64,000 nt of DNA from a virus: the IMG/VR virus record IMGVR_UViG_3300017917_003612, positions 14,549-78,548 of that record; one strand, written 5' to 3'. The notes under the pieces were generated by a model. It was not told where the DNA came from. It was given only the letters and a program-made list of their open reading frames with translations, and ran no database searches. Position 1 is the first letter of the stretch. Each line of letters starts with the position of its first letter. Both the position numbers and the translations under genes were made by a program. Shown here one piece after another: positions 12,409 to 22,297 of the stretch.

Positions 12409-12774
12409 TTATACTGCAATTTTGCGCTGAGATCCGCGTCGCATCTCACCGCGCATGATTGTTGTTGCTACCAATATACCTTCACTTTTTATAAAAGGCA
12501 CAGTTACATCGGTTTCAAGATCAACCACTTGAATACTACTACCATCGGCCAAGTCTAGTAGAACATTTTTCTTTTTTAAAAGCAGCTTGGAGAAAAAATT
12601 TGCAACTTCTTGTAAACTTATAATTGGCGTATTTCTAGGATTAGAAATTTGATCAACAAAATGTGTAGTAATTTTTAAAGGTATACCTTCGGGCCGAAAT
12701 CTACTGTTTAACGCATCACTATAATGACGAGCCAATTGAGTATTGTTTTCCACAATAAAATTACCGGCTCGCAT
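12409..12774 (-). CDS. Putative virion-internal protein, possibly BECR-like RNase fold
   Basis: MRAGNFIVE N-terminus; THFVDQ...RN...VATTIMR. Confidence 0.55.
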   Translation of the reverse strand: MRAGNFIVENNTQLARHYSDALNSRFRPEGIPLKITTHFVDQISNPRNTPIISLQEVANFFSKLLLKKKNVLLDLADGSSIQVVDLETDVTVPFIKSEGILVATTIMRGEMRRGSQRKIAV

Positions 12775-14823: not shown

Positions 14824-15840
14824 TTATTTTTTGCGCCCACTTTTCATATTTGCACACCAGTGGTACATCTTACCTTTTTCGCCACCTGACCGTTTGGCTC
14901 GGGCTCTCAAACTGCTCACGCTACCTGCACAACTGGCACCAGCACGTTTTACACGACCCGGACGACTCTTTCCTTTTACTCGACCGTCAGCAAAATTTTC
15001 TGTTACAGGTTGATCTAAAAATTGTTGTACTGCTTGTAGATGATCACTGCCGGCCACATACACACCCTGCTTTCTTGTGGCTAAAAACTTGTCGCGTAGA
15101 TCATTTACAGACTTTGCTACACGGCCTGCACGATATGGATATTCTTCCCAGTTGTTGGGAAACATTAATTGCTCGCCCAATGTAAAAAACTTTTTAACAT
15201 TACGTTCTGTAGCAGGCGCTTGACTCATAGCAACAAAATCATATGGACCTTCACTGACAGATTGTAAAAACTTCGCCAAAGTTTCAGCATCGAACTGTCG
15301 GTCTGGGAAATAGTTGGTGCTAGGCTGTGTGCTTAAAATTCTATCAAAAATTGTAGAATCAGGGTCAGACCCAATCTTGCCTTCCACGGTGTCGTTTTCT
15401 TTTATATTGCTAAACAACACATACAGAAACGGGGCAGGATATCCTTTGATAGCAGGTGATAGCAAATCATCGTCCCAACTACCTTCATAATCGTCGATAA
15501 TACCTTTGGTAAGTTTTTGGTCCATACCGTTGCCTTCGTACCAGGCACCGTGACGTTCGGCAATGGCTCGTACTCGTTCAGCGTCCGAGTCTGACAGTTG
15601 TAACCGCTTGCCGTGTTGTTGACCCACAATTGCCACATCGTTGCCTATGTAGATCACATCACTGTGTTTGGCTTCTGTAACACTTTCACCCCCGCCACCA
15701 TCGCCACCGCTGCTGTCGCCAGACTCGCCACCGTAGGCACCGCTGCCATAATAACCGTAGCCAGGATACCAGTAACCGCCAAAATATCTATTTTTGCGTT
15801 TTTTCTTTTTGCGTTCGGTTACAAACTCTGCGGCTCTCAT
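14824..15840 (-). CDS. Putative capsid-targeted polyprotein with TIKI/EreA/ChaN-like domain and basic C-terminal module
   Basis: MRAAEFVTE; internal VTE linkers; VGQQHG, YEG, RD, AGSDHL. Confidence 0.6.
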   Translation of the reverse strand: MRAAEFVTERKKKKRKNRYFGGYWYPGYGYYGSGAYGGESGDSSGGDGGGGESVTEAKHSDVIYIGNDVAIVGQQHGKRLQLSDSDAERVRAIAERHGAWYEGNGMDQKLTKGIIDDYEGSWDDDLLSPAIKGYPAPFLYVLFSNIKENDTVEGKIGSDPDSTIFDRILSTQPSTNYFPDRQFDAETLAKFLQSVSEGPYDFVAMSQAPATERNVKKFFTLGEQLMFPNNWEEYPYRAGRVAKSVNDLRDKFLATRKQGVYVAGSDHLQAVQQFLDQPVTENFADGRVKGKSRPGRVKRAGASCAGSVSSLRARAKRSGGEKGKMYHWCANMKSGRKK

Positions 15841-15862
15841 TACATTCTCACTTGCATATAAA

Positions 15863-16780
15863 CTATGTTACTTCTTGCTCTTGAGGTTTTTTGAATACAC
15901 TATATATTTTTTGTATTCCAATTCCTTTTATTCCATTTGCATGTAATACATTTGCTACAAATGTTCCACAATTTTCAGCTCCTACTGAGTTAGTTGTAGG
16001 AACTGATACTGGTTTTGATAATGACACAATTTTTATGTTTTGTTTTGGAAACTCTGGGTCATCTGTAACTGCGTTGGTGACATATACATCATTGCCTTTA
16101 TGCCCACTCATTTGTATTTGTTTTCCGTCTTGAGTTATAAATCCAACATGGTCATAACTCCATCCTTTAGGTGTTTTATTACTGCGGGCAAAGAATATTT
16201 TGTCTGACAAATAGTTGCCAATTTCTTCCATTATTTTTTGTGGATTCAATTGATGCATTAGATTTCCCGCACCGGTTGGCACTGGTCCCCCGGACCCAAC
16301 AAATCCCCCCCGCACCGGTACACTTGAACTACCCCGGGCTGCTGGAGGAGAAATTTTAGCTACATCAGACGACGAAGCAAACACCACAGGTAATTTTGCT
16401 GTTTTCCATAACGGGTTATCTCTATCCATTCTTTTTTGTAATAAACCTAACGCAGAAATTCTATGAGCACCATCATCAAGTTTTCCGTCTACAGCTACAA
16501 TAGGTGGCAAAGTTTTTAATGACTCAGGATTGTCCTTTAAAAACTTTGCATATTCTACCGCTTTGGGAGTCACATTCCAACTAAAATCTTTTTTATCGTA
16601 ATCTCTAATTACATCTTTGTGATATGGTATTCCCTGTATACTTTTATGAATTTGTTTTAAAGTTAAATTTTGTTGATTTAGATTAGCATCAGGATTTAAT
16701 TGGGCAGCTTTACCAGAACTTGGCCCGGGTTGTGGTACTGATAAATCGTCAGCCTCTAGTATAAATTCGTATGCTCTCAT
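15863..16780 (-). CDS. Putative capsid-targeted protein: ParB/Srx-like plus permuted papain-like domain
   Basis: MRAYEFILE; PPIVAVDG..DGAHR; YDHVGF...NCGTFVANVL. Confidence 0.65.
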   Translation of the reverse strand: MRAYEFILEADDLSVPQPGPSSGKAAQLNPDANLNQQNLTLKQIHKSIQGIPYHKDVIRDYDKKDFSWNVTPKAVEYAKFLKDNPESLKTLPPIVAVDGKLDDGAHRISALGLLQKRMDRDNPLWKTAKLPVVFASSSDVAKISPPAARGSSSVPVRGGFVGSGGPVPTGAGNLMHQLNPQKIMEEIGNYLSDKIFFARSNKTPKGWSYDHVGFITQDGKQIQMSGHKGNDVYVTNAVTDDPEFPKQNIKIVSLSKPVSVPTTNSVGAENCGTFVANVLHANGIKGIGIQKIYSVFKKPQEQEVT

Positions 16781-18249
16781 AGATTCCTTTCCCAAATCAC
16801 AAAGGGATCATTTACTACTATTGTGCCGTCGGGTCTGGCCATATAATTGCCACTATGCAAGTCAACTGTAAAATTGTGCCGACGAGCAAATCTTTCAACT
16901 TCATACACAGTTTTTAATAAACCATCAGCTCGTTCAGGTCCGCCTAACAGATCAATAACTTCCTTTATATCTTCAAAGTACTGTGGATTGTAATCTGGTG
17001 CATAATAATCTTCTGCACTGGCAAATTCTGCATAGGCTTTAATTTTCTTGTATGCTGATTCAAAATTACCTCGACCTATTTGTTTAGTGACCTGATCAAT
17101 TTGTCCAACCAAGGTTCCAACTGTTTTAGGTAATTCTTGTAGTGTTTCCATTCGGGCTTGAATATAGTTTTTACCTTGAAATTTAAAACTTTCAAATGCA
17201 CTAAAACGAGGCAAGTGCGGATTGTCTTTGTTCTTGTTGCAGTAGTCGATCCAGTTGATAAACATACGCTGGTCAGGGCTGAATCCTTCTACACCTTTAC
17301 GATATCCAAACACAATATAAACTTGTCCATTGGGTTCAAGATATGCTTGTTTGTCTATTCCGCCGCCCAAGTATTTGTAACCTTTTTTGGCTAGAGCTTG
17401 GCTGATACCAACATGTATTGAGCCAGCCATTTCGTCAAGTGCTTCTTCAAATTGTGCAGAGTATCCAACATTGAACTGTGGTTTAGCTCCAGGAAAATTG
17501 GGCTGATTGACGCCGGCACTGAATCCTTTTCGTTGATATTGTGCCCCAACTCCTGTTACACCAAAATCCTTTTGTCCGCTAGCACTCAATGAAATAGAAC
17601 TGTCTTTGTCAACTGGTATATTGTAAGATCCTGATACAGATCCTCGGTCACCTATGTTTACACTGGCAGGACCATATCCAAGATTGATACCTCGTTGAGC
17701 TTCATAATCTCTCATGCCTCCGGGCATATCAGCTGATATGCCTAAATTCAGCCCTGTGTTTAAATTGCTGTACTGAGCACGTTGTAATCTTTTTTCTGGA
17801 TCCACGCTGGTTTGTGCTGTCCAATTGACTGGTTTTTCTTTTGGCATCGGCAAGTCAGGCAATTCGTCATCGTTTATAACCTGTCTGCTGACCATTTCTT
17901 CTAGGTGTGCAATTGCTTCGTCAGCTCTAATTGCTTTTGCGTAATCTTCTGGGCTGTCTATATCGTGCAAGCTAAAGCCCAGGCGCTTGAGCAACGGAAT
18001 CATTTTGTGTTCTTCTTCTTCACTGCCAAACGCAAACACAGTGTGCGGCACACCTTTGTTAAATGTTCTAGGATCTGCATCGTCTAAGTCACTCACTGCC
18101 ATGCCCAGCTTGTACCAGTCGTACACATCGCTCACATTGACCAAGGTAGTACCTTTGGGAAAACTCAACGGTGTGCCCGGATCACTTTTGAGGTACTGAT
18201 CTTCATCGTAATCGGGGTTATCTTCTAGTATAAATTCTCTTGCTCTCAT
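16777..18249 (-). CDS. Putative capsid-targeted polyprotein with C-terminal protein-kinase-like domain
   Basis: MRAREFILE; YLGGG, HLPRF, METL, DLHSGNYM...VVNDP. Confidence 0.7.
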   Translation of the reverse strand: MRAREFILEDNPDYDEDQYLKSDPGTPLSFPKGTTLVNVSDVYDWYKLGMAVSDLDDADPRTFNKGVPHTVFAFGSEEEEHKMIPLLKRLGFSLHDIDSPEDYAKAIRADEAIAHLEEMVSRQVINDDELPDLPMPKEKPVNWTAQTSVDPEKRLQRAQYSNLNTGLNLGISADMPGGMRDYEAQRGINLGYGPASVNIGDRGSVSGSYNIPVDKDSSISLSASGQKDFGVTGVGAQYQRKGFSAGVNQPNFPGAKPQFNVGYSAQFEEALDEMAGSIHVGISQALAKKGYKYLGGGIDKQAYLEPNGQVYIVFGYRKGVEGFSPDQRMFINWIDYCNKNKDNPHLPRFSAFESFKFQGKNYIQARMETLQELPKTVGTLVGQIDQVTKQIGRGNFESAYKKIKAYAEFASAEDYYAPDYNPQYFEDIKEVIDLLGGPERADGLLKTVYEVERFARRHNFTVDLHSGNYMARPDGTIVVNDPFVIWERNL

Positions 18250-20747
18250 CGTGCTGGTACCACCATAAATTCACCACTACCTAGTAGGCCTTGACCGCGC
18301 AGCCAATTTGCAGCATATTGATTGGCTTCGCCTTGATTGCTACGATGAACAAAACTATAAACTTCACGGTCGTTTTGATCTAACACTAGCCAACGGGTAT
18401 TTCCGGGTGGCAGGCTTTCTGTACCACGGGCAGCAGAACTCGCAGGATCTGCTTCTATCCTGTTTATTGTCCATCCGGCACGCTCCAGTCGATTTCTCAC
18501 AGCAGCCATGGCAGCATCAGCATTTGCTGCCGGAACCGTCATAGTATTGTTTCTCACTTCATCACCATAGGTCACCGTATAATCAACTCTATATTCTGTT
18601 TGCTCTCGTTGTTGAACTTCACCTTGATTGCGTGGCAAATCGTCTCTTGCTCGCATGAGTGGTCTAACATATACGGGATCGTCATATCCTGTCTGCTGTT
18701 GCCATCTTGCTGCGTGTCTTTCAGCATCTGCTACTGCGTTTCCGATACCGCTGATTACAGACACAACCTCATCGGTGTTTCTACTCACTACTTCCCAGTG
18801 CCCGGTAAATTCTTGATCACGGCTGGGTGTTTGCTGAACAGGTGGTTCACGCCAAATTGGCTGGGGCTCGCCCAATCTCGCTCTCAAGTTATATGCAGTT
18901 TCCTGACCGTCATATGTGCGATCGTGTGCGGCCACAATATCATCGAAGGCTGCATTGGCAAACTGATCAGGGAATCTTTGTACCGCAATGGTTCGAGCCT
19001 GGAATTCACTCATGGCTCGCACCCACACACCTCGTGGACTGTTTTCTACTTTGACATAGTAGAACTTTGGACTCATTTGATTCATGTCATCCGTGGTAGC
19101 GGCTCGTAAGGGTTGTACTTTCCATCCGTGTTCTTGTGCCCATTCTTCCATACTACTACTACCAATGTTTAATCGCCATTTTTTAATTGCTTCCACAACA
19201 GCGTCCAACTCGGTCTTACCTAACACTTCCGTACCTTGGCTTTGATAAGGACTGGTACGATCGCCTGTGACCCGCCATACCAACAATATATCCTTGGCAC
19301 CCTGTGTGAGTTTATCAACTTTTCTCTTGCCCTGTATCTGTCTTACAAATGCTTTCAAGGCACTTTGTGGTAATTCACCGGCGGCATATTTTGCAAAGTA
19401 TTGAATGGTATCGTCTTCCTTGCCTTGTGTGAGTGTTTTGTACAATTTCTTGTAGTATTCTTGTTTGAACTCCGCAGGCTTGGTAGCAACATCTAATGCC
19501 ACTACTGCTCGCAACATTGTGTTTTTAACTGCAGAGAGATCATCACCCAGCCAGTCACCACCCGGACCACGAAACTCTATCCAGTCGCCTCTATTGTTGA
19601 TACTACTATATTTTTGTGTTTGACCTGTGTGTAAAACTTTGCTGGCTATGTCACTTAGTCCACTCTGAAACTGACGCATCATTTCGGTCACACGCTCAGG
19701 TTCGGTGCGGGCAATGATTTTAATACTTTTCAAAATACTCTTACAATAGGTATTACCTTCACGACCAAATTGTTCTAGGATATAGTTATCGCCCAGGAAC
19801 ATGGCCAGTTTAACAAAGTCTAGATTTTGTTGACCGGGTACACTCACATTCATGTGCAGGCCAGTGCTGTCGTTAGTGTAAGCACCCACTCTACCGGCCC
19901 ATTTAGCCACTTTGTCGATGTCCGACAACATTTCGTCCACAGTTAGTGGAGGGCTTACAAACTCTAGTCCACCATCACCTGGGTCGCCATGCAAGCTTGA
20001 ATCCGGCTCTACCACATAGTGTCCAGGTCGTCTAGTGGCACCGTGATAACTGCTACTGGCATTTACCGGACGACCTATGGCTTGACTGAAGTCATCGGCA
20101 ACATCATTGATACTGACACCGCTACCGCCGTAGTAATCATCTGGTTGGGTCCAGTATGGCCATTCTAGGCTGTGTTCATTGGCGAAATCACTCATCATGG
20201 TGATGCCATTATCTTCTAGCCATTCTTCAAACTTTGAGTCAAGATTTTCGTTGTATTCATCTCTCAATTGATCGCGTATGTTGTCTTCGTTTTCGTCAAT
20301 GAAATTTTGTAAAGCTGCAATATACTCTTCCTCAGTTTCGTAATCGTCTCTGTCGACATTGTCGCCTGCTATTTCTGTTACACGATCTTGTCCTGCCTCC
20401 GAAGCCATGTATTGTTCTTGATCTTCGTCGGTCCACGCAAGGAAGTTCTCATTAAGTTCATCAATGGCTCTTTGTATGCTACGAGTGCTATTGCTAACTT
20501 CGCCGCCGCGGAAAAAGCTCATTATGTCATTGGTCCAGCCTCGGCCAGTAGGAAAACTTTCATCAGCATCGTAATCCGGTTCTGATTCAAATTCATTTTC
20601 TTCTTCACCCTGGGCATTGGGCACAATCAGTTCAAATTCCATGCCAACTCTGGCGTCAATGTTCTTGGCCATTTTGCTCAAGTTGGTTGGGCTCATTTTG
20701 AGCTCGAACAATTCATCTTCGGTTAGTTCAAATTCGCGAAATCTCAT
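18246..20747 (-). CDS. Putative amidoligase (COOH-NH2 ligase type 2) with acidic insert and C-terminal repeats
   Basis: GMEFE, DSSL...GLEFVSPPL, STGLHMNVS, KYSSIN, IEFR. Confidence 0.8.
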   Translation of the reverse strand: MRFREFELTEDELFELKMSPTNLSKMAKNIDARVGMEFELIVPNAQGEEENEFESEPDYDADESFPTGRGWTNDIMSFFRGGEVSNSTRSIQRAIDELNENFLAWTDEDQEQYMASEAGQDRVTEIAGDNVDRDDYETEEEYIAALQNFIDENEDNIRDQLRDEYNENLDSKFEEWLEDNGITMMSDFANEHSLEWPYWTQPDDYYGGSGVSINDVADDFSQAIGRPVNASSSYHGATRRPGHYVVEPDSSLHGDPGDGGLEFVSPPLTVDEMLSDIDKVAKWAGRVGAYTNDSTGLHMNVSVPGQQNLDFVKLAMFLGDNYILEQFGREGNTYCKSILKSIKIIARTEPERVTEMMRQFQSGLSDIASKVLHTGQTQKYSSINNRGDWIEFRGPGGDWLGDDLSAVKNTMLRAVVALDVATKPAEFKQEYYKKLYKTLTQGKEDDTIQYFAKYAAGELPQSALKAFVRQIQGKRKVDKLTQGAKDILLVWRVTGDRTSPYQSQGTEVLGKTELDAVVEAIKKWRLNIGSSSMEEWAQEHGWKVQPLRAATTDDMNQMSPKFYYVKVENSPRGVWVRAMSEFQARTIAVQRFPDQFANAAFDDIVAAHDRTYDGQETAYNLRARLGEPQPIWREPPVQQTPSRDQEFTGHWEVVSRNTDEVVSVISGIGNAVADAERHAARWQQQTGYDDPVYVRPLMRARDDLPRNQGEVQQREQTEYRVDYTVTYGDEVRNNTMTVPAANADAAMAAVRNRLERAGWTINRIEADPASSAARGTESLPPGNTRWLVLDQNDREVYSFVHRSNQGEANQYAANWLRGQGLLGSGEFMVVPAR

Positions 20748-21133
20748 TCTATTATTTCCGGATTGGCCTTGCCATACAATTTCATAAGGTAGCCTGCTAC
20801 TGCATCGGCCTCTTGTTCAACGGGCGAGCCAGGATAGCTTTGGTCACCGTTTACTCTACCATCTTCGTACTGCTTTCTGTGAGTAAGTTCGTGAGCTACA
20901 GTACGCATTATATCAATTAGATTTCTGTTGCCGGTATAAATCCACATCGTGTCTTCGGCATCGTCGTAATAACCGGTTCTGTGTTGGTCTGGACCTTCCT
21001 TGGCATCTTGGAAACGAATCTTAGGCAATGCTTCTTGAATGTCCAATCGATCAACACACCATGCCACAAAGTCGCGCAGTTGTGCTTCGTGATCACGAAA
21101 GGTGCTTTCTGTAATAAATTCTTGTGCTCTCAT
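20744..21133 (-). CDS. Zincin-like metallopeptidase
   Basis: MRAQEFITE; TVAHELTH...EQEA (HEXXH plus E). Confidence 0.75.
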   Translation of the reverse strand: MRAQEFITESTFRDHEAQLRDFVAWCVDRLDIQEALPKIRFQDAKEGPDQHRTGYYDDAEDTMWIYTGNRNLIDIMRTVAHELTHRKQYEDGRVNGDQSYPGSPVEQEADAVAGYLMKLYGKANPEIIE

Positions 21134-21657
21134 TTTTTTCTAGATCTCGCTTCTCGTTCGGCCCTCATTAGATTAGGCACATAATCAAATTCCGAACCCA
21201 ACATGGGATTGTTCAGCTGATATGCTGCGGCTAGATCGTCAGGCACTCCATGCATGCCACCAGTATAACCGCCGCCCGCGCCTTTCAAAGACTGTGGTGC
21301 GATTTTAGGTGTTGTGGCAGCGGGAGTTTTTAGTGCATCTGCGCTTTGACTTCTATATTCAGATGGTGTCAATTTACGACCTGCTCTATCGTCTGCTCTA
21401 ATCCAGTCGCCTATACCAGCAAAATTTTGGTTGAGGCGAGCTTCACGCTCGGCACTTCTTTGTTGCGCGATTGCTCTATCAATTGCATCGTTTTCGGCCT
21501 TTATAGCGGCTGTAATTCTTTTATGTTTCTCACTGCCAGGTTCACCAATGGTGGCTCTTTTAACATCCCTTTTCGGCTGCTGCTGAGACAGTTTATCCCA
21601 ATCTAAGCCTAAAAAGCTATTTTCACCAGCTTCGGTTATAAATTCTCTAGCTCGCAT
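21130..21657 (-). CDS. Putative capsid-targeted hypothetical protein
   Basis: Probable start MRAREFITE at 21657. Confidence 0.7.
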   Translation of the reverse strand: MRAREFITEAGENSFLGLDWDKLSQQQPKRDVKRATIGEPGSEKHKRITAAIKAENDAIDRAIAQQRSAEREARLNQNFAGIGDWIRADDRAGRKLTPSEYRSQSADALKTPAATTPKIAPQSLKGAGGGYTGGMHGVPDDLAAAYQLNNPMLGSEFDYVPNLMRAEREARSRKK

Positions 21658-22297
21658 CTTGTTTATCCTGTGAGCCAGCAATCATTTTACCATAGTCCCG
21701 GCTCTGTATATTTTGCGGTGTGTGCTCGCGCTGTCCTTTGACAATTTCAAATGCTCTACGCAGACCTTTGGCTACCACGTCCAATCCATCTTCATCTGCT
21801 TGATATTTGATACCAATACCACCACTTTGTTCCCATTCTGTCAGCACACTGTTTCTATCATCAACTAAAATATTGGGTGTTCCATCTGCTTGTTTGGCAT
21901 ACTTGCCCTTGCGGCCGGTAATACGGATCACTCTAGGCTGCGGGTTTAAGTTTTCTGCTATCCAGGCTCGCTTCATGGCTTCTGAGTTTTGATTATCACC
22001 GCGTAAGGGACTTGAACAGATATTGTAGTATCCAAACACTTCCACAACCATAGCCACCAATCTATCTGCTGACGGAAATTTTGGTAATCTGTAAAAGAAA
22101 TCAGTGCCACGCATCTGTGCAATTACAGGCTCGCGCAGTTCTGCAGGAATACTGCGGTAGTCTGCTCGGCCACTTTTAACGTCAGCGGGCACTCCGGCCA
22201 ATTTGGCATATTCTGAGAAGAAATCTGCTAGTACGCCGTCCATGTCTAGGAATATTTCAGGACGGCCAGGGGGTTTTTCTAGTTCGTATAAGCGCAT
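21647..22297 (-). CDS. 5'(3')-deoxyribonucleotidase-like HAD hydrolase (NT5C family)
   Basis: FLDMDGVLADF, CSSP, K, ILVDD; ATG 4 nt after ATAAATA. Confidence 0.85.
   Translation of the reverse strand: MRLYELEKPPGRPEIFLDMDGVLADFFSEYAKLAGVPADVKSGRADYRSIPAELREPVIAQMRGTDFFYRLPKFPSADRLVAMVVEVFGYYNICSSPLRGDNQNSEAMKRAWIAENLNPQPRVIRITGRKGKYAKQADGTPNILVDDRNSVLTEWEQSGGIGIKYQADEDGLDVVAKGLRRAFEIVKGQREHTPQNIQSRDYGKMIAGSQDKQDAS

What the first reader, a model, noticed from the sequence alone, without database searches (positions are those of the whole stretch)
14824..18249. Cargo genes look like polyproteins with Glu-ending cleavage linkers between domains
Seen: domain boundaries coincide with copies of the tag's ending: ESVTE/AKH and QPVTE/NFADG (14824 ORF), KIMEE/IGN between the ParB-like and papain-like parts (15863 ORF, which itself ends EQEVT), and HLEE/MVS and ALDE/MAGS before the kinase (16777 ORF). 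The 15863 and 21130 ORFs also share a KIxP...GG..G...QLN segment. Inference: the prohead protease releases several independent effectors from each precursor, and domains are exchanged at these linkers.
Basis: inference. Interest (0 to 1): 0.75.

Follow-up and report, generated by a model that had tools for sequence, protein, structure and literature searches.

The report
Cut-here joints in phage cargo polyproteins
Three neighbouring genes of an uncultured T4-like jumbo phage are chains of exchangeable protein modules joined at the short motif that the T4-type head protease cuts, so they are most likely loaded into the capsid and cut into separate proteins, but no cut has been measured.

Summary
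All five named Glu-ending motifs are in the sequence: A E56 and E281, B E185, C E118 and E273. Their presence alone is chance level. [LIVM]xE occurs about once per 58 residues, in cargo and non-cargo ORFs alike. What is not chance is where they sit.

- **Cassette boundaries.** A close relative (L081) has protein A without residues 57-281 and protein C without residues 119-273. The remainder is rejoined at the same motifs.
- **Module joints across many contexts.** Before the NFADG end module, P1 is E in 86/86 and 132/132 distinct contexts, and P3 is V/I/L/M(F) in about 88%. Before the kinase it is 49/49 for both. Before B's papain-like domain the joint is almost always GVAE.
- **Register with the tag.** Of 399 internal positions that align with the tag-terminal Glu of a stand-alone homolog, 198 carry [LIVMF]xE exactly there. 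Neighbouring offsets give 0-6.5%.
- **Protease.** Related complete 320-355 kb genomes encode a T4 gp21-type protease.
- **Accessibility.** In the AlphaFold model of C the candidate sites lie in low-confidence interdomain segments.

Domain exchange at the joints is shown. Cleavage is a strong inference only. The B/F shared segment and the "ParB-like" label are not supported.

No paper describing this was found. Other agents of this scan noted the same phenomenon on many other genomes.

The parts
15814..15840 (-). Protein A, residues 1-9: N-terminal tag MRAAEFVTE, ending in V-x-E
   Evidence: The same tag type heads B, C, D, E and F.
15673..15813 (-). Protein A, residues 10-56: basic plus Gly/Tyr-rich module (RKKKKRK...YGYYG...GGGGESVTE). 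Joint 1 is V54-T55-E56 (15673-15681).
   Evidence: This recurring module is preceded by [LIV]xE in 9/11 contexts. In L081 it is joined directly to the NFADG module at ...ESVDE/NFADG.
14998..15672 (-). Protein A, residues 57-281: 225-aa cassette of unknown function with a TraB/TIKI-like lead. It ends with joint 2, V279-T280-E281 (14998-15006).
   Evidence: Absent from the 112-aa L081 ortholog. Present in L001 behind a 5'-nucleotidase module. Flanked by GTT ACA GAA and GTA ACA GAA. ESM Atlas lead to TraB/PrgY/GumN scores only 0.83.
14827..14997 (-). Protein A, residues 282-338: NFADG basic C-terminal module (C...HWC pattern)
   Evidence: More than 594 viral loci. 1,416 clusters at 50% identity, and C-terminal in 132 of 140 examined. 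The joint before it has P1 = E in 86/86 and 132/132 contexts.
16754..16780 (-). Protein B, residues 1-9: tag MRAYEFILE. The real start is the ATG at 16780, not the TTG at 16795.
   Evidence: The L081 ortholog starts at the same Met.
16355..16753 (-).
   Evidence: 98.6% identical over residues 1-142 to the L081 ortholog, then diverges. Found inside larger mosaics in L002, L071 and L038, between GVAE-type joints. No Pfam hit at E<=1.
16226..16354 (-). Protein B, residues 143-185: Gly/Pro-rich spacer ending in the joint I183-M184-E185 (16226-16234)
   Evidence: Homologs have (Q)GVAE at the equivalent place, and P0019 lacks the spacer.
15866..16225 (-). Protein B, residues 186-305: permuted papain-like (C92/LRAT/NlpC-P60-like) domain
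   Evidence: 75-91% identical in 59 clusters with different partners such as GNAT, deaminase and chitinase. ESM Atlas structure matches give TM 0.55-0.65. In homologs it is followed by another QGVAE; here the protein ends ...EQEVT.
18223..18249 (-). Protein C, residues 1-9: tag MRAREFILE
17896..18222 (-). Protein C, residues 10-118: N-domain (VSDVYDWYKLGM...FGSEEEEH) ending in the joint L116-E117-E118 (17896-17904)
   Evidence: Found alone or in other mosaics in about 40 loci, with matches ending at 98-128. AF2 gives pLDDT below 50 for residues 105-139.
17431..17895 (-). Protein C, residues 119-273: beta-rich 155-aa cassette ending in the joint L271-D272-E273 (17431-17439)
   Evidence: Absent from the L081 ortholog (...HLEE/MVNE/MAGEIHGG). 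Present in about 14 other kinase proteins. Flanked by the repeat GAA ATG G. AF2 predicts strands over 143-263 at pLDDT 51-75, and residues 251-277 fall below 50.
16780..17430 (-). Protein C, residues 274-490: protein-kinase-like domain
   Evidence: phrog_15752 (T7 gp0.7-type kinase) at 4.4e-7. AF2 pLDDT 80-95. Foldseek hits FN3K, APH(2'') and Ser/Thr kinases with probability 0.9-0.99. The joint before it has P1 = E, P3 = L/I/V and P1' = M in 49/49 contexts.
18246..22297 (-). Rest of the tagged array, outside the finding: D (18246-20747, amidoligase), E (20744-21133, minimal zincin HExxH), F (21130-21657) and G (21647-22297, 5'-nucleotidase). G through B are chained by overlapping stop/start codons, ATGA from F/E to C/B.
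   Evidence: In other phages G+E (L020), E+D (L080, L038) and other-domain+E (L082) are single polypeptides joined at [LIV]xE.

Best explanation
A, B and C are capsid-cargo polyproteins of a T4-like jumbo phage.

- Each starts with a 9-residue T4-like capsid-targeting tag (MRAxEF[IV]xE).
- Each is built of 2-3 independent modules joined by short, probably flexible segments that end in [V/I/L/M]-x-Glu. This is the motif cut by the T4 gp21-type prohead protease.

Proposed sequence of events (inferred):
1. The tag brings the whole precursor into the scaffolding core.
2. On prohead maturation the protease cuts after the tag and after each joint.
3. A then yields a basic Gly/Tyr peptide, a 225-aa enzyme-like domain and a 57-aa basic NFADG peptide.
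4. B yields an N-domain with spacer and a papain-like hydrolase.
5. C yields a small N-domain, a beta-rich domain and a protein kinase.
6. The pieces stay in the head and enter the cell with the DNA.

Shown: the joints are the places where modules are inserted, deleted, swapped and split into separate tagged genes. Each module therefore travels together with its own cut site.
For: **Cassette indels in a close relative.** L081 carries the same array, with genes 70-98% identical. Its A ortholog is tag + Gly/Tyr module + NFADG module, joined at ESVDE/NFADG. Its C ortholog joins HLEE/MVNE/MAGEIHGG.

**Joint logos over many unrelated upstream contexts.**
- NFADG: P1 = E in 86/86 and 132/132; P3 hydrophobic in 75/86 and 116/132; P2 and P4 variable.
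- Kinase: P1 and P3 in 49/49.
- Cys module: 27/28.
- Papain-like domain: GVAE in most of 53.

**Tag and joint are equivalent.**
- Window E is cut at FITE/STFRD, while L082 has the same module internally at NLTE/STFRD.
- D's tag is kept internally as ...REFALLE/DEF... in L038.
- The zincin alignment shows [LIV]xE in the tag's column in most internal copies.
- Overall, 198 of 399 internal positions are in exact register, against 0-6.5% at other offsets.

**Breakpoints.** Enriched 2.1-fold at [LIVM]xE, but 0.75-1.2 at [LIVM]xD, xK and xQ. Right-hand breakpoints peak exactly at the Glu.

**Protease.** Peptidase_S77 is present in 4 of 5 related large contigs, including all 3 that are at least 90% complete, within a T4-like head module. 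G001 shares a 72%-identical DnaK with the window.

**T4 precedent.** gp21 cuts after L/I-X-E with few other determinants. The 10-residue CTS loads foreign proteins. Asp at P1 blocks the cut (PMC9026906).

**AF2 of C.** E9, E118 and E273 lie in segments with pLDDT below 50. The [LIV]xE sites at 372, 430 and 450 lie inside the confident kinase fold.
Against: - There are no proteomic or biochemical data for this phage or any relative. No cultured phage in 50,697 GenBank records carries these modules.
- The window's own contig, 22% of a genome, lacks the protease gene, as do five other fragments that carry such arrays.
- The invariant Glu and hydrophobic P3 before a given module could be part of that module's fold.
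- T4 gp21 does not cut every L/I-x-E.
- The AF2 model of B was unusable (pLDDT 45), so B's site is supported by homolog position only.
- B's site is I-M-E followed by E, an atypical form of the family's GVAE.
Confidence: 0.65

Rival explanations
1. The joints are real module boundaries and recombination points, but they are not cut. On this reading the proteins act as intact multi-domain 'polyvalent' proteins, and the [LIV]xE motifs are relics of former N-terminal tags left when neighbouring tagged genes fused.
For: - Internal copies of almost the whole tag exist, for example ...LRREFALLE/DEFLGE... in L038 and ...WELALME/TEILGE... in L080.
- The genes of the array are chained by ATGA overlaps, and the same modules occur fused or separate.
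- Polyvalent proteins delivered uncut are known, for example N4 vRNAP (PMC5512222).
Against: - A relic would decay. Instead P1 = Glu is invariant in 86, 132 and 49 independent contexts, while the rest of the tag is lost (GVAE, VxE) and P2 and P4 vary freely.
- Asp, the conservative substitute that blocks T4 processing, is never seen at P1 in the NFADG or kinase joint sets (0 of 86, 132 and 49 contexts).
- A protease with so few determinants would be expected to cut exposed copies of its site once the precursor is inside the prohead (PMC9026906).
Confidence: 0.17
2. The joints are cut, but by an enzyme of the cargo array itself rather than by the prohead protease. The candidates are the minimal zincin (gene E, HExxH...E) and the strongly conserved papain-like domain of B. 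Cutting could happen before packaging or after injection, as proposed for the MPTase of polyvalent proteins.
For: - The zincin module has invariant H81, E82, H85 and E106 and recurs in many arrays and polyproteins.
- It has weak Pfam hits to metallopeptidase families, including MPTase-PolyVal.
- Iyer et al. 2017 propose such processing.
- B's papain-like domain is 75-91% identical across 59 clusters and is flanked by GVAE on both sides.
Against: - The same motif ends the N-terminal tag, which in T4 is removed by gp21.
- Cleavage after Glu with a hydrophobic P3 is the documented gp21 rule.
- No specificity is known for the zincin.
- The papain-like fold (C92/LRAT/NlpC-P60) is typical of cell-wall or lipid hydrolases.
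Confidence: 0.13
3. Chance: [LIV]xE is a common tripeptide and happens to lie near the boundaries.
For: The density is 1.7% per residue, equal in cargo and background ORFs. A and C hold 7 sites each, most of them inside domains.
Against: - There is exact register with tag ends, 50% against about 3%.
- P1 and P3 are conserved at hundreds of joints.
- Control motifs are not enriched.
Confidence: 0.02

Closest known systems
Phage T4 internal proteins IPI, IPII, IPIII and Alt: capsid targeting sequence (CTS) plus gp21 processing (Mullaney and Black 1996; reviewed in PMC9026906 and PMC3012670)
   Same: - A short N-terminal tag ends in a hydrophobic-x-Glu protease site.
- The cargo behind the same tag is diverse and fast-evolving.
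- A T4-type S77 protease and head module are present in the clade.
- Cargo includes enzymes and small basic proteins.
   Different: - T4 cargo proteins carry one mature part behind the tag; Alt also loses a C-terminal piece.
- Here one tag is followed by 2-3 modules, and by many more in relatives (up to 1,791 aa). Each module is bounded by its own copy of the cut motif.
- Modules shuffle at these joints.
- No sequence homology to T4 IPs was found.
Polyvalent proteins of phages and conjugative elements (Iyer, Burroughs, Anand, de Souza, Aravind 2017, PMC5512222)
   Same: - Many unrelated effector-type domains are strung in one polypeptide next to virion genes.
- The domain repertoire overlaps (zincin, lysozyme, GNAT, NTase, ParB-like).
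- That paper also proposes processing into functional units.
   Different: - There, processing is ascribed to an in-chain MPTase, and no N-terminal T4-type tag or repeated Glu-ending joint is described. The paper has no occurrence of 'linker' and one of 'prohead'.
- Here the punctuation matches the prohead protease motif, and the system sits in T4-like jumbo phages.
Head and ejection proteins of giant phages phiKZ, 201phi2-1 and SPN3US, cut by gp21-related proteases (PMC5694885, PMC10052503)
   Same: - Many internal head proteins are cut after Glu by a T4-related protease.
- Some long propeptides hold several candidate sites.
   Different: - The motif there is S/A-x-E or A-x-E, with a small P3, and mostly removes propeptides.
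- Here P3 is V/L/I/M, as in T4, and the pieces between cuts are folded, independently mobile domains.
T4 scaffold/core proteins gp22, gp67 and gp68, cut into several fragments by gp21
   Same: One polypeptide is cut at several L/I-x-E sites inside the prohead.
   Different: Those fragments are disposable scaffold debris or small acidic peptides, not enzymes.

Membership tests
T4-type CTS cargo (internal proteins processed by gp21) | N-terminal tag of about 10 residues ending in L/I-x-E | tested here: met
   MRAAEFVTE, MRAYEFILE and MRAREFILE. The gp21 rule L/I-X-E and the roles of CTS residues 8 and 10 come from PMC9026906. Val at P3 is a slight widening.
T4-type CTS cargo (internal proteins processed by gp21) | The phage encodes a gp21-family (Peptidase_S77) prohead protease | tested here: inconclusive
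   Not in the window's 78.5-kb contig, which is 22% complete. Present in 4 of 5 related large contigs that carry the same modules, including the complete 355-kb G001. G001 shares a 72%-identical DnaK with the window.
T4-type CTS cargo (internal proteins processed by gp21) | Protein is found in the capsid, tag removed, and injected | not testable with these tools
   No cultured relative and no proteome.
T4-type CTS cargo (internal proteins processed by gp21) | Sequence homology to IPI/IPII/IPIII/Alt | tested here: not met
   tblastn of B, C and the NFADG module against 50,697 phage records found no match. Homology is not expected in this family, whose cargo is non-homologous by nature.
Polyvalent proteins (Iyer et al. 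2017) | Two or more unrelated effector-type domains in one phage polypeptide, in a late/virion gene context | tested here: met
   A has 3 modules, B has 2 and C has 3. The array abuts a tail-fibre gene with a Collar domain.
Polyvalent proteins (Iyer et al. 2017) | Zincin-like MPTase domain in the chain as the processing enzyme | tested here: inconclusive
   A, B and C have none. Gene E is a separate minimal zincin. The MPTase-PolyVal Pfam model hits only 3 of 29 homologs, with best E 0.011.
phiKZ/SPN3US-type processed head proteins | Cleavage motif S/A/G-x-E (small P3) | tested here: not met
   P3 is V/L/I/M(F) in 75/86, 116/132 and 49/49 joints.
Protein-kinase-like fold (C residues 274-490) | Profile and fold similarity to kinases | tested here: met
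   phrog_15752 at 4.4e-7. Foldseek probability 0.9-0.99 to FN3K, APH(2'') and Ser/Thr kinases. Catalytic residues were not examined.
Permuted papain-like C92/LRAT/NlpC-P60 (B residues 186-305) | Fold similarity, with His before Cys | tested here: inconclusive
   ESM Atlas model matches give TM 0.55-0.65. No Pfam hit. My own AF2 model failed.
ParB/Srx-like nuclease (B residues 10-142) | Pfam or profile match | tested here: not met
   No family at E<=1 for B or three homologs. Only a DGAHR motif is seen.

The most novel reading that the evidence does not exclude
T4-like jumbo phages of natural waters may use a general protein grammar of one address tag plus any number of modules, each ending in its own [V/L/I]xE cut site. 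The head protease would then work like the polyprotein protease of an RNA virus. More than a thousand different cargo chains are built this way: the NFADG end module alone caps 1,416 clusters at 50% identity. New enzymes would be plugged into the capsid-delivered arsenal by inserting a 'module plus cut site' cassette at any joint.
Probability: 0.5. Interest if true: 0.8.

Novelty: new variant of a known kind. Interest (0 to 1): 0.68.

Why it matters
**If the joints are cut:**
- The T4 capsid-targeting system would be a combinatorial loading platform, not just a way to pack a few small anti-restriction proteins.
- One tag would deliver fixed-ratio sets of enzymes into the cell with the DNA. Here these are kinase, hydrolase, zincin, nucleotidase and amidoligase domains, plus small basic peptides.
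- It would explain how jumbo phages diversify their injected arsenal so quickly.
- It would give a rule for predicting mature virion proteins from sequence.
- It would suggest natural multi-cargo designs for T4-based protein delivery vectors.

**It is directly testable** with one protease and three substrates.

Tried and rejected
- **AF2 of full-length B** with 38 sequences gave pLDDT 45. The homologs are too similar to each other, so the model was unusable for site accessibility or fold search.
- **Overall density.** [LIVM]xE is not higher in cargo than in background (0.0171 vs 0.0169). Only position matters.
- **'Cargo proteins tend to end exactly at [LIVMF]xE'.** This is not general: 4/162 tagged against 23/1620 background. 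All four cases are the zincin module, including window gene E, which ends ...EIIE.
- **B/F shared Gly-rich segment** is not significant.
- **Pfam and PHROG** give nothing for A, for B, for the B N-domain or for the C middle domain, even at E<=1.
- **PDB sequence search** with the zincin profile gave nothing meaningful.
- **megablast and tblastn** of the array, B, C and the NFADG module against GenBank phages gave no match. Only D has distant homologs, in Atu_ph07 and RsoM2USA.
- **Literature searches** for the module motifs and for CTS, polyprotein and jumbo-phage combinations found no description of this arrangement.
- **Internal translation start at the kinase joint.** Met is invariant at P1' there. 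I considered this unlikely on sequence alone, because GAA GAA ATG leaves almost no Shine-Dalgarno spacing. It was not tested.
Full report
**Context.** The window is the last 64 kb of a 78.5-kb IMG/VR contig, estimated at 22% of a genome of about 350 kb. It carries a phage DnaK, virion proteins and a tail fibre with a Collar domain. Upstream of the tail-fibre gene on the minus strand lies a run of genes whose products begin with MRAxEF[IV]xE-type peptides:
- A: 14824-15840
- B: 15863-16780
- C: 16777-18249
- D: 18246-20747
- E: 20744-21133
- F: 21130-21657
- G: 21647-22297

G starts MRLYELE and D starts MRFREFELTE. From F/E to C/B the genes are chained by ATGA stop/start overlaps, and G/F overlap by 11 nt. 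The finding concerns A, B and C.

**Observation.** As a tripeptide, [LIVM]xE is common. It occurs at 1.7% of positions in cargo-like and in unrelated ORFs alike, and A and C have seven copies each. The sequence alone therefore proves nothing. The question is whether the named copies sit at real module boundaries.

**Boundaries from relatives: proteins A and C.** A scan of IMG/VR with A found more than 594 loci, nearly all matching only residues about 279-338. A scan with C found about 40 loci matching only residues about 10-120, and a few matching only 270-490.

The contig behind L081/L017 carries the same array. Its G is 93% identical, E 80%, D 83%, and B 98.6% over residues 1-142. There the A ortholog is 112 aa: tag, Gly/Tyr module and NFADG module, joined as ...GGESVDE/NFADG. 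The C ortholog is 333 aa, with ...HLEE/MVNE/MAGEIHGG.

Window A therefore holds a 225-aa cassette exactly between E56 and N282, and window C holds a 155-aa cassette between about E118 and M274. At the DNA level the cassettes are bracketed by short repeats that encode the joint: GTT ACA GAA ... GTA ACA GAA in A, and GAA ATG G ... GAA ATG G in C. A's cassette recurs in L001 behind a 5'-nucleotidase module and again ends ...GMAE/NFADG.

**Boundaries from relatives: protein B.** Residues 186-305 are 75-91% identical in 59 protein clusters. Their other parts differ: GNAT, deaminase, GH19 chitinase, ParB-like N-domain, Cys module and NFADG module. In nearly all of them (Q)GVAE stands 8-10 residues before the conserved KIFFARSN, where B has KIME. 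A second QGVAE usually follows the domain, where B simply ends ...EQEVT.

**The joint motif is general.**
- Before the NFADG module, in 86 distinct contexts from viral loci, P1 is Glu in 86 and P3 is V/I/L/M in 75, while P2 and P4 vary.
- In an independent set of 132 contexts from representatives of 1,416 clusters, P1 is Glu in 132 and P3 is V/L/I/M/F in 116.
- Before the kinase, in 49 contexts, P1 is Glu in 49, P3 is L/I/V in 49 and P1' is Met in 49.
- Before the small Cys module the pattern is [LIVF]xE-x-W in 27 of 28.
- BLAST homology breakpoints among 523 cargo-like ORFs fall within 4 residues of [LIVM]xE 2.1 times more often than expected. For [LIVM]xD, xK and xQ the ratio is 0.75-1.2. 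Right-hand breakpoints peak exactly at the Glu. These counts are not independent events, so no probability is attached.

**Joints equal tag ends.** The same module can be a separate tagged gene in one phage and an internal part of a chain in another.
- Window E starts MRAQEFITE/STFRD..., while L082 has ...NLTE/STFRD... 330 residues into a larger protein.
- G+E are fused in L020, and E+D in L080 and L038. In L038, D's tag survives internally as ...REFALLE/DEF....
- In the alignment of 29 zincin modules, most internal copies carry [LIV]xE in the column of the tag's Glu.
- Across all data, 399 distinct internal positions align with the tag-terminal Glu of a homologous stand-alone protein. Of these, 198 carry [LIVMF]xE exactly there, against 0-6.5% at offsets of 1 to 10.

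**Which enzyme.** T4 gp21 cuts after L/I-X-E with few other determinants. The 10-residue CTS of IPIII suffices to load foreign proteins, its residues 8 and 10 govern processing, and Asp at position 10 blocks it (PMC9026906; PMC5694885).

Four of five large related contigs that carry these modules encode a Peptidase_S77 protein. These include a complete 355-kb genome with terminal repeats. The gene lies in a T4-like block of portal, small protein, acidic protein, protease, scaffold and major capsid protein. The capsid protein has ...KYLAE/SATAG about 37 residues before the conserved GVQPM. That this corresponds to the gp23 maturation site is my recollection of T4, not a test. The protease is 60% identical to that of Sinorhizobium phage Phosso and 52% to that of PA5oct. 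The window's own fragment lacks the gene, as do five other fragments.

**Accessibility.** An AlphaFold2 model of C was built with 90 sequences and has mean pLDDT 66.7.
- The kinase domain (280-484) is confident, at pLDDT 80-95.
- The N-domain and the beta-rich middle domain are moderately confident.
- Segments 8-29, 105-139 and 251-277 have pLDDT below 50. They contain E9, E118 and E273.
- The [LIV]xE copies at 372, 430 and 450 lie inside the kinase fold.

Foldseek places the C-terminal domain among protein-kinase-like folds, in line with phrog_15752. The model of B failed.

**What the pieces are.**
- A 10-56 is a basic, Gly/Tyr-rich low-complexity module.
- A 57-281 has only a weak lead to TraB/PrgY/GumN-TIKI proteins, in agreement with another first-reader note.
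- A 282-338 is a basic 57-aa end module with a C...HWC pattern. It caps proteins of 78 to 1,791 aa.
- B 186-305 resembles permuted papain-like hydrolases.
- The 'ParB-like' label for B 10-142 rests on a DGAHR motif only.

**Rivals.**
1. The joints might be uncut relics of gene fusion. The invariance of Glu, never Asp in the NFADG and kinase joint sets, where the rest of the tag has vanished argues for selection on the cut site.
2. The array's own zincin (E; invariant H81, E82, H85, E106; weak metallopeptidase hits) or B's Cys-hydrolase might do the cutting, as Iyer et al. proposed for MPTase domains. The identity of the joint with the tag end and with the gp21 rule makes the prohead protease the simpler answer.
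3. Chance is excluded.

**Novelty.** T4's CTS cargo and 'polyvalent proteins' are both known. I found no paper describing CTS-tagged chains of modules punctuated by prohead-protease sites. None of 50,697 GenBank phage records carries modules B, C or NFADG. Notes of this scan show that other agents reached the same reading on many other uncultured T4-like phages. Those are unchecked AI notes, not independent evidence. I class the finding as a new variant of a known kind.

**Verdict.** Exchange of domains at the joints is shown. Cleavage by the head protease is the best-supported mechanism (0.65), but it is unmeasured.

Noticed in passing
window 14827-14997 (-); P0181-P0330: The 57-aa NFADG basic module (C...HWC pattern) is 80-93% identical in 1,416 clusters at 50% identity. 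It sits at the very C-terminus in 132 of 140 examined proteins, which range from 78 to 1,791 aa. It may be a small DNA-binding head peptide or a second address element.
   Followed up: partly
window 15866-16225 (-); P0002-P0053: B's papain-like domain is unusually conserved (75-91% identity) across 59 clusters, while its partner domains differ completely. It is flanked by QGVAE on both sides in most of them.
   Followed up: partly
window 17428-17439 (-); P0061-P0180: The residue after the kinase joint is Met in 49 of 49 contexts ([LIV][DE]E/MAGEIHGG). It could be a vestigial start codon, an internal start or a P1' preference.
   Followed up: no
window 20744-21133 (-): Gene E is a 129-aa minimal zincin (HExxH...E, five invariant residues across 29 homologs). 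It ends exactly at ...EIIE, the point where homologs continue into the next module. It recurs in many cargo arrays.
   Followed up: partly
window 16777-21657 (-): Genes F/E, E/D, D/C and C/B overlap by ATGA, and G/F overlap by 11 nt. This suggests translational coupling along the whole cargo array. Only B to A has a 22-nt gap.
   Followed up: no
window 12409-12774 (-): The 121-aa gene downstream of the tail fibre starts MRAGNFIVE, a tag with Asn in place of Glu at position 5. It is conserved in L081, where it starts MRVGEFLNE.
   Followed up: no
L127 5617-7119 (Agrobacterium phage Atu_ph07 gp196): The only cultured-phage homologs of the amidoligase D are in Atu_ph07 and RsoM2USA. In Atu_ph07 the gene lies two genes from the portal gene, on the opposite strand, and starts MRWQDISSKKLTE/LKM, which resembles window D's MRFREFELTE/DELFE/LKM.
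   Followed up: partly
L001 955-12000 (+): Another uncultured phage has a run of at least 12 consecutive genes starting MK(I/L)xELLE or MRAxEF. This shows a second dialect of the tag in one array.
   Followed up: no
window 17431-17895 (-): C's middle cassette is predicted as an all-beta domain of about 10 strands, with no Pfam, PHROG or clear PDB match. Its function is unknown.
   Followed up: partly
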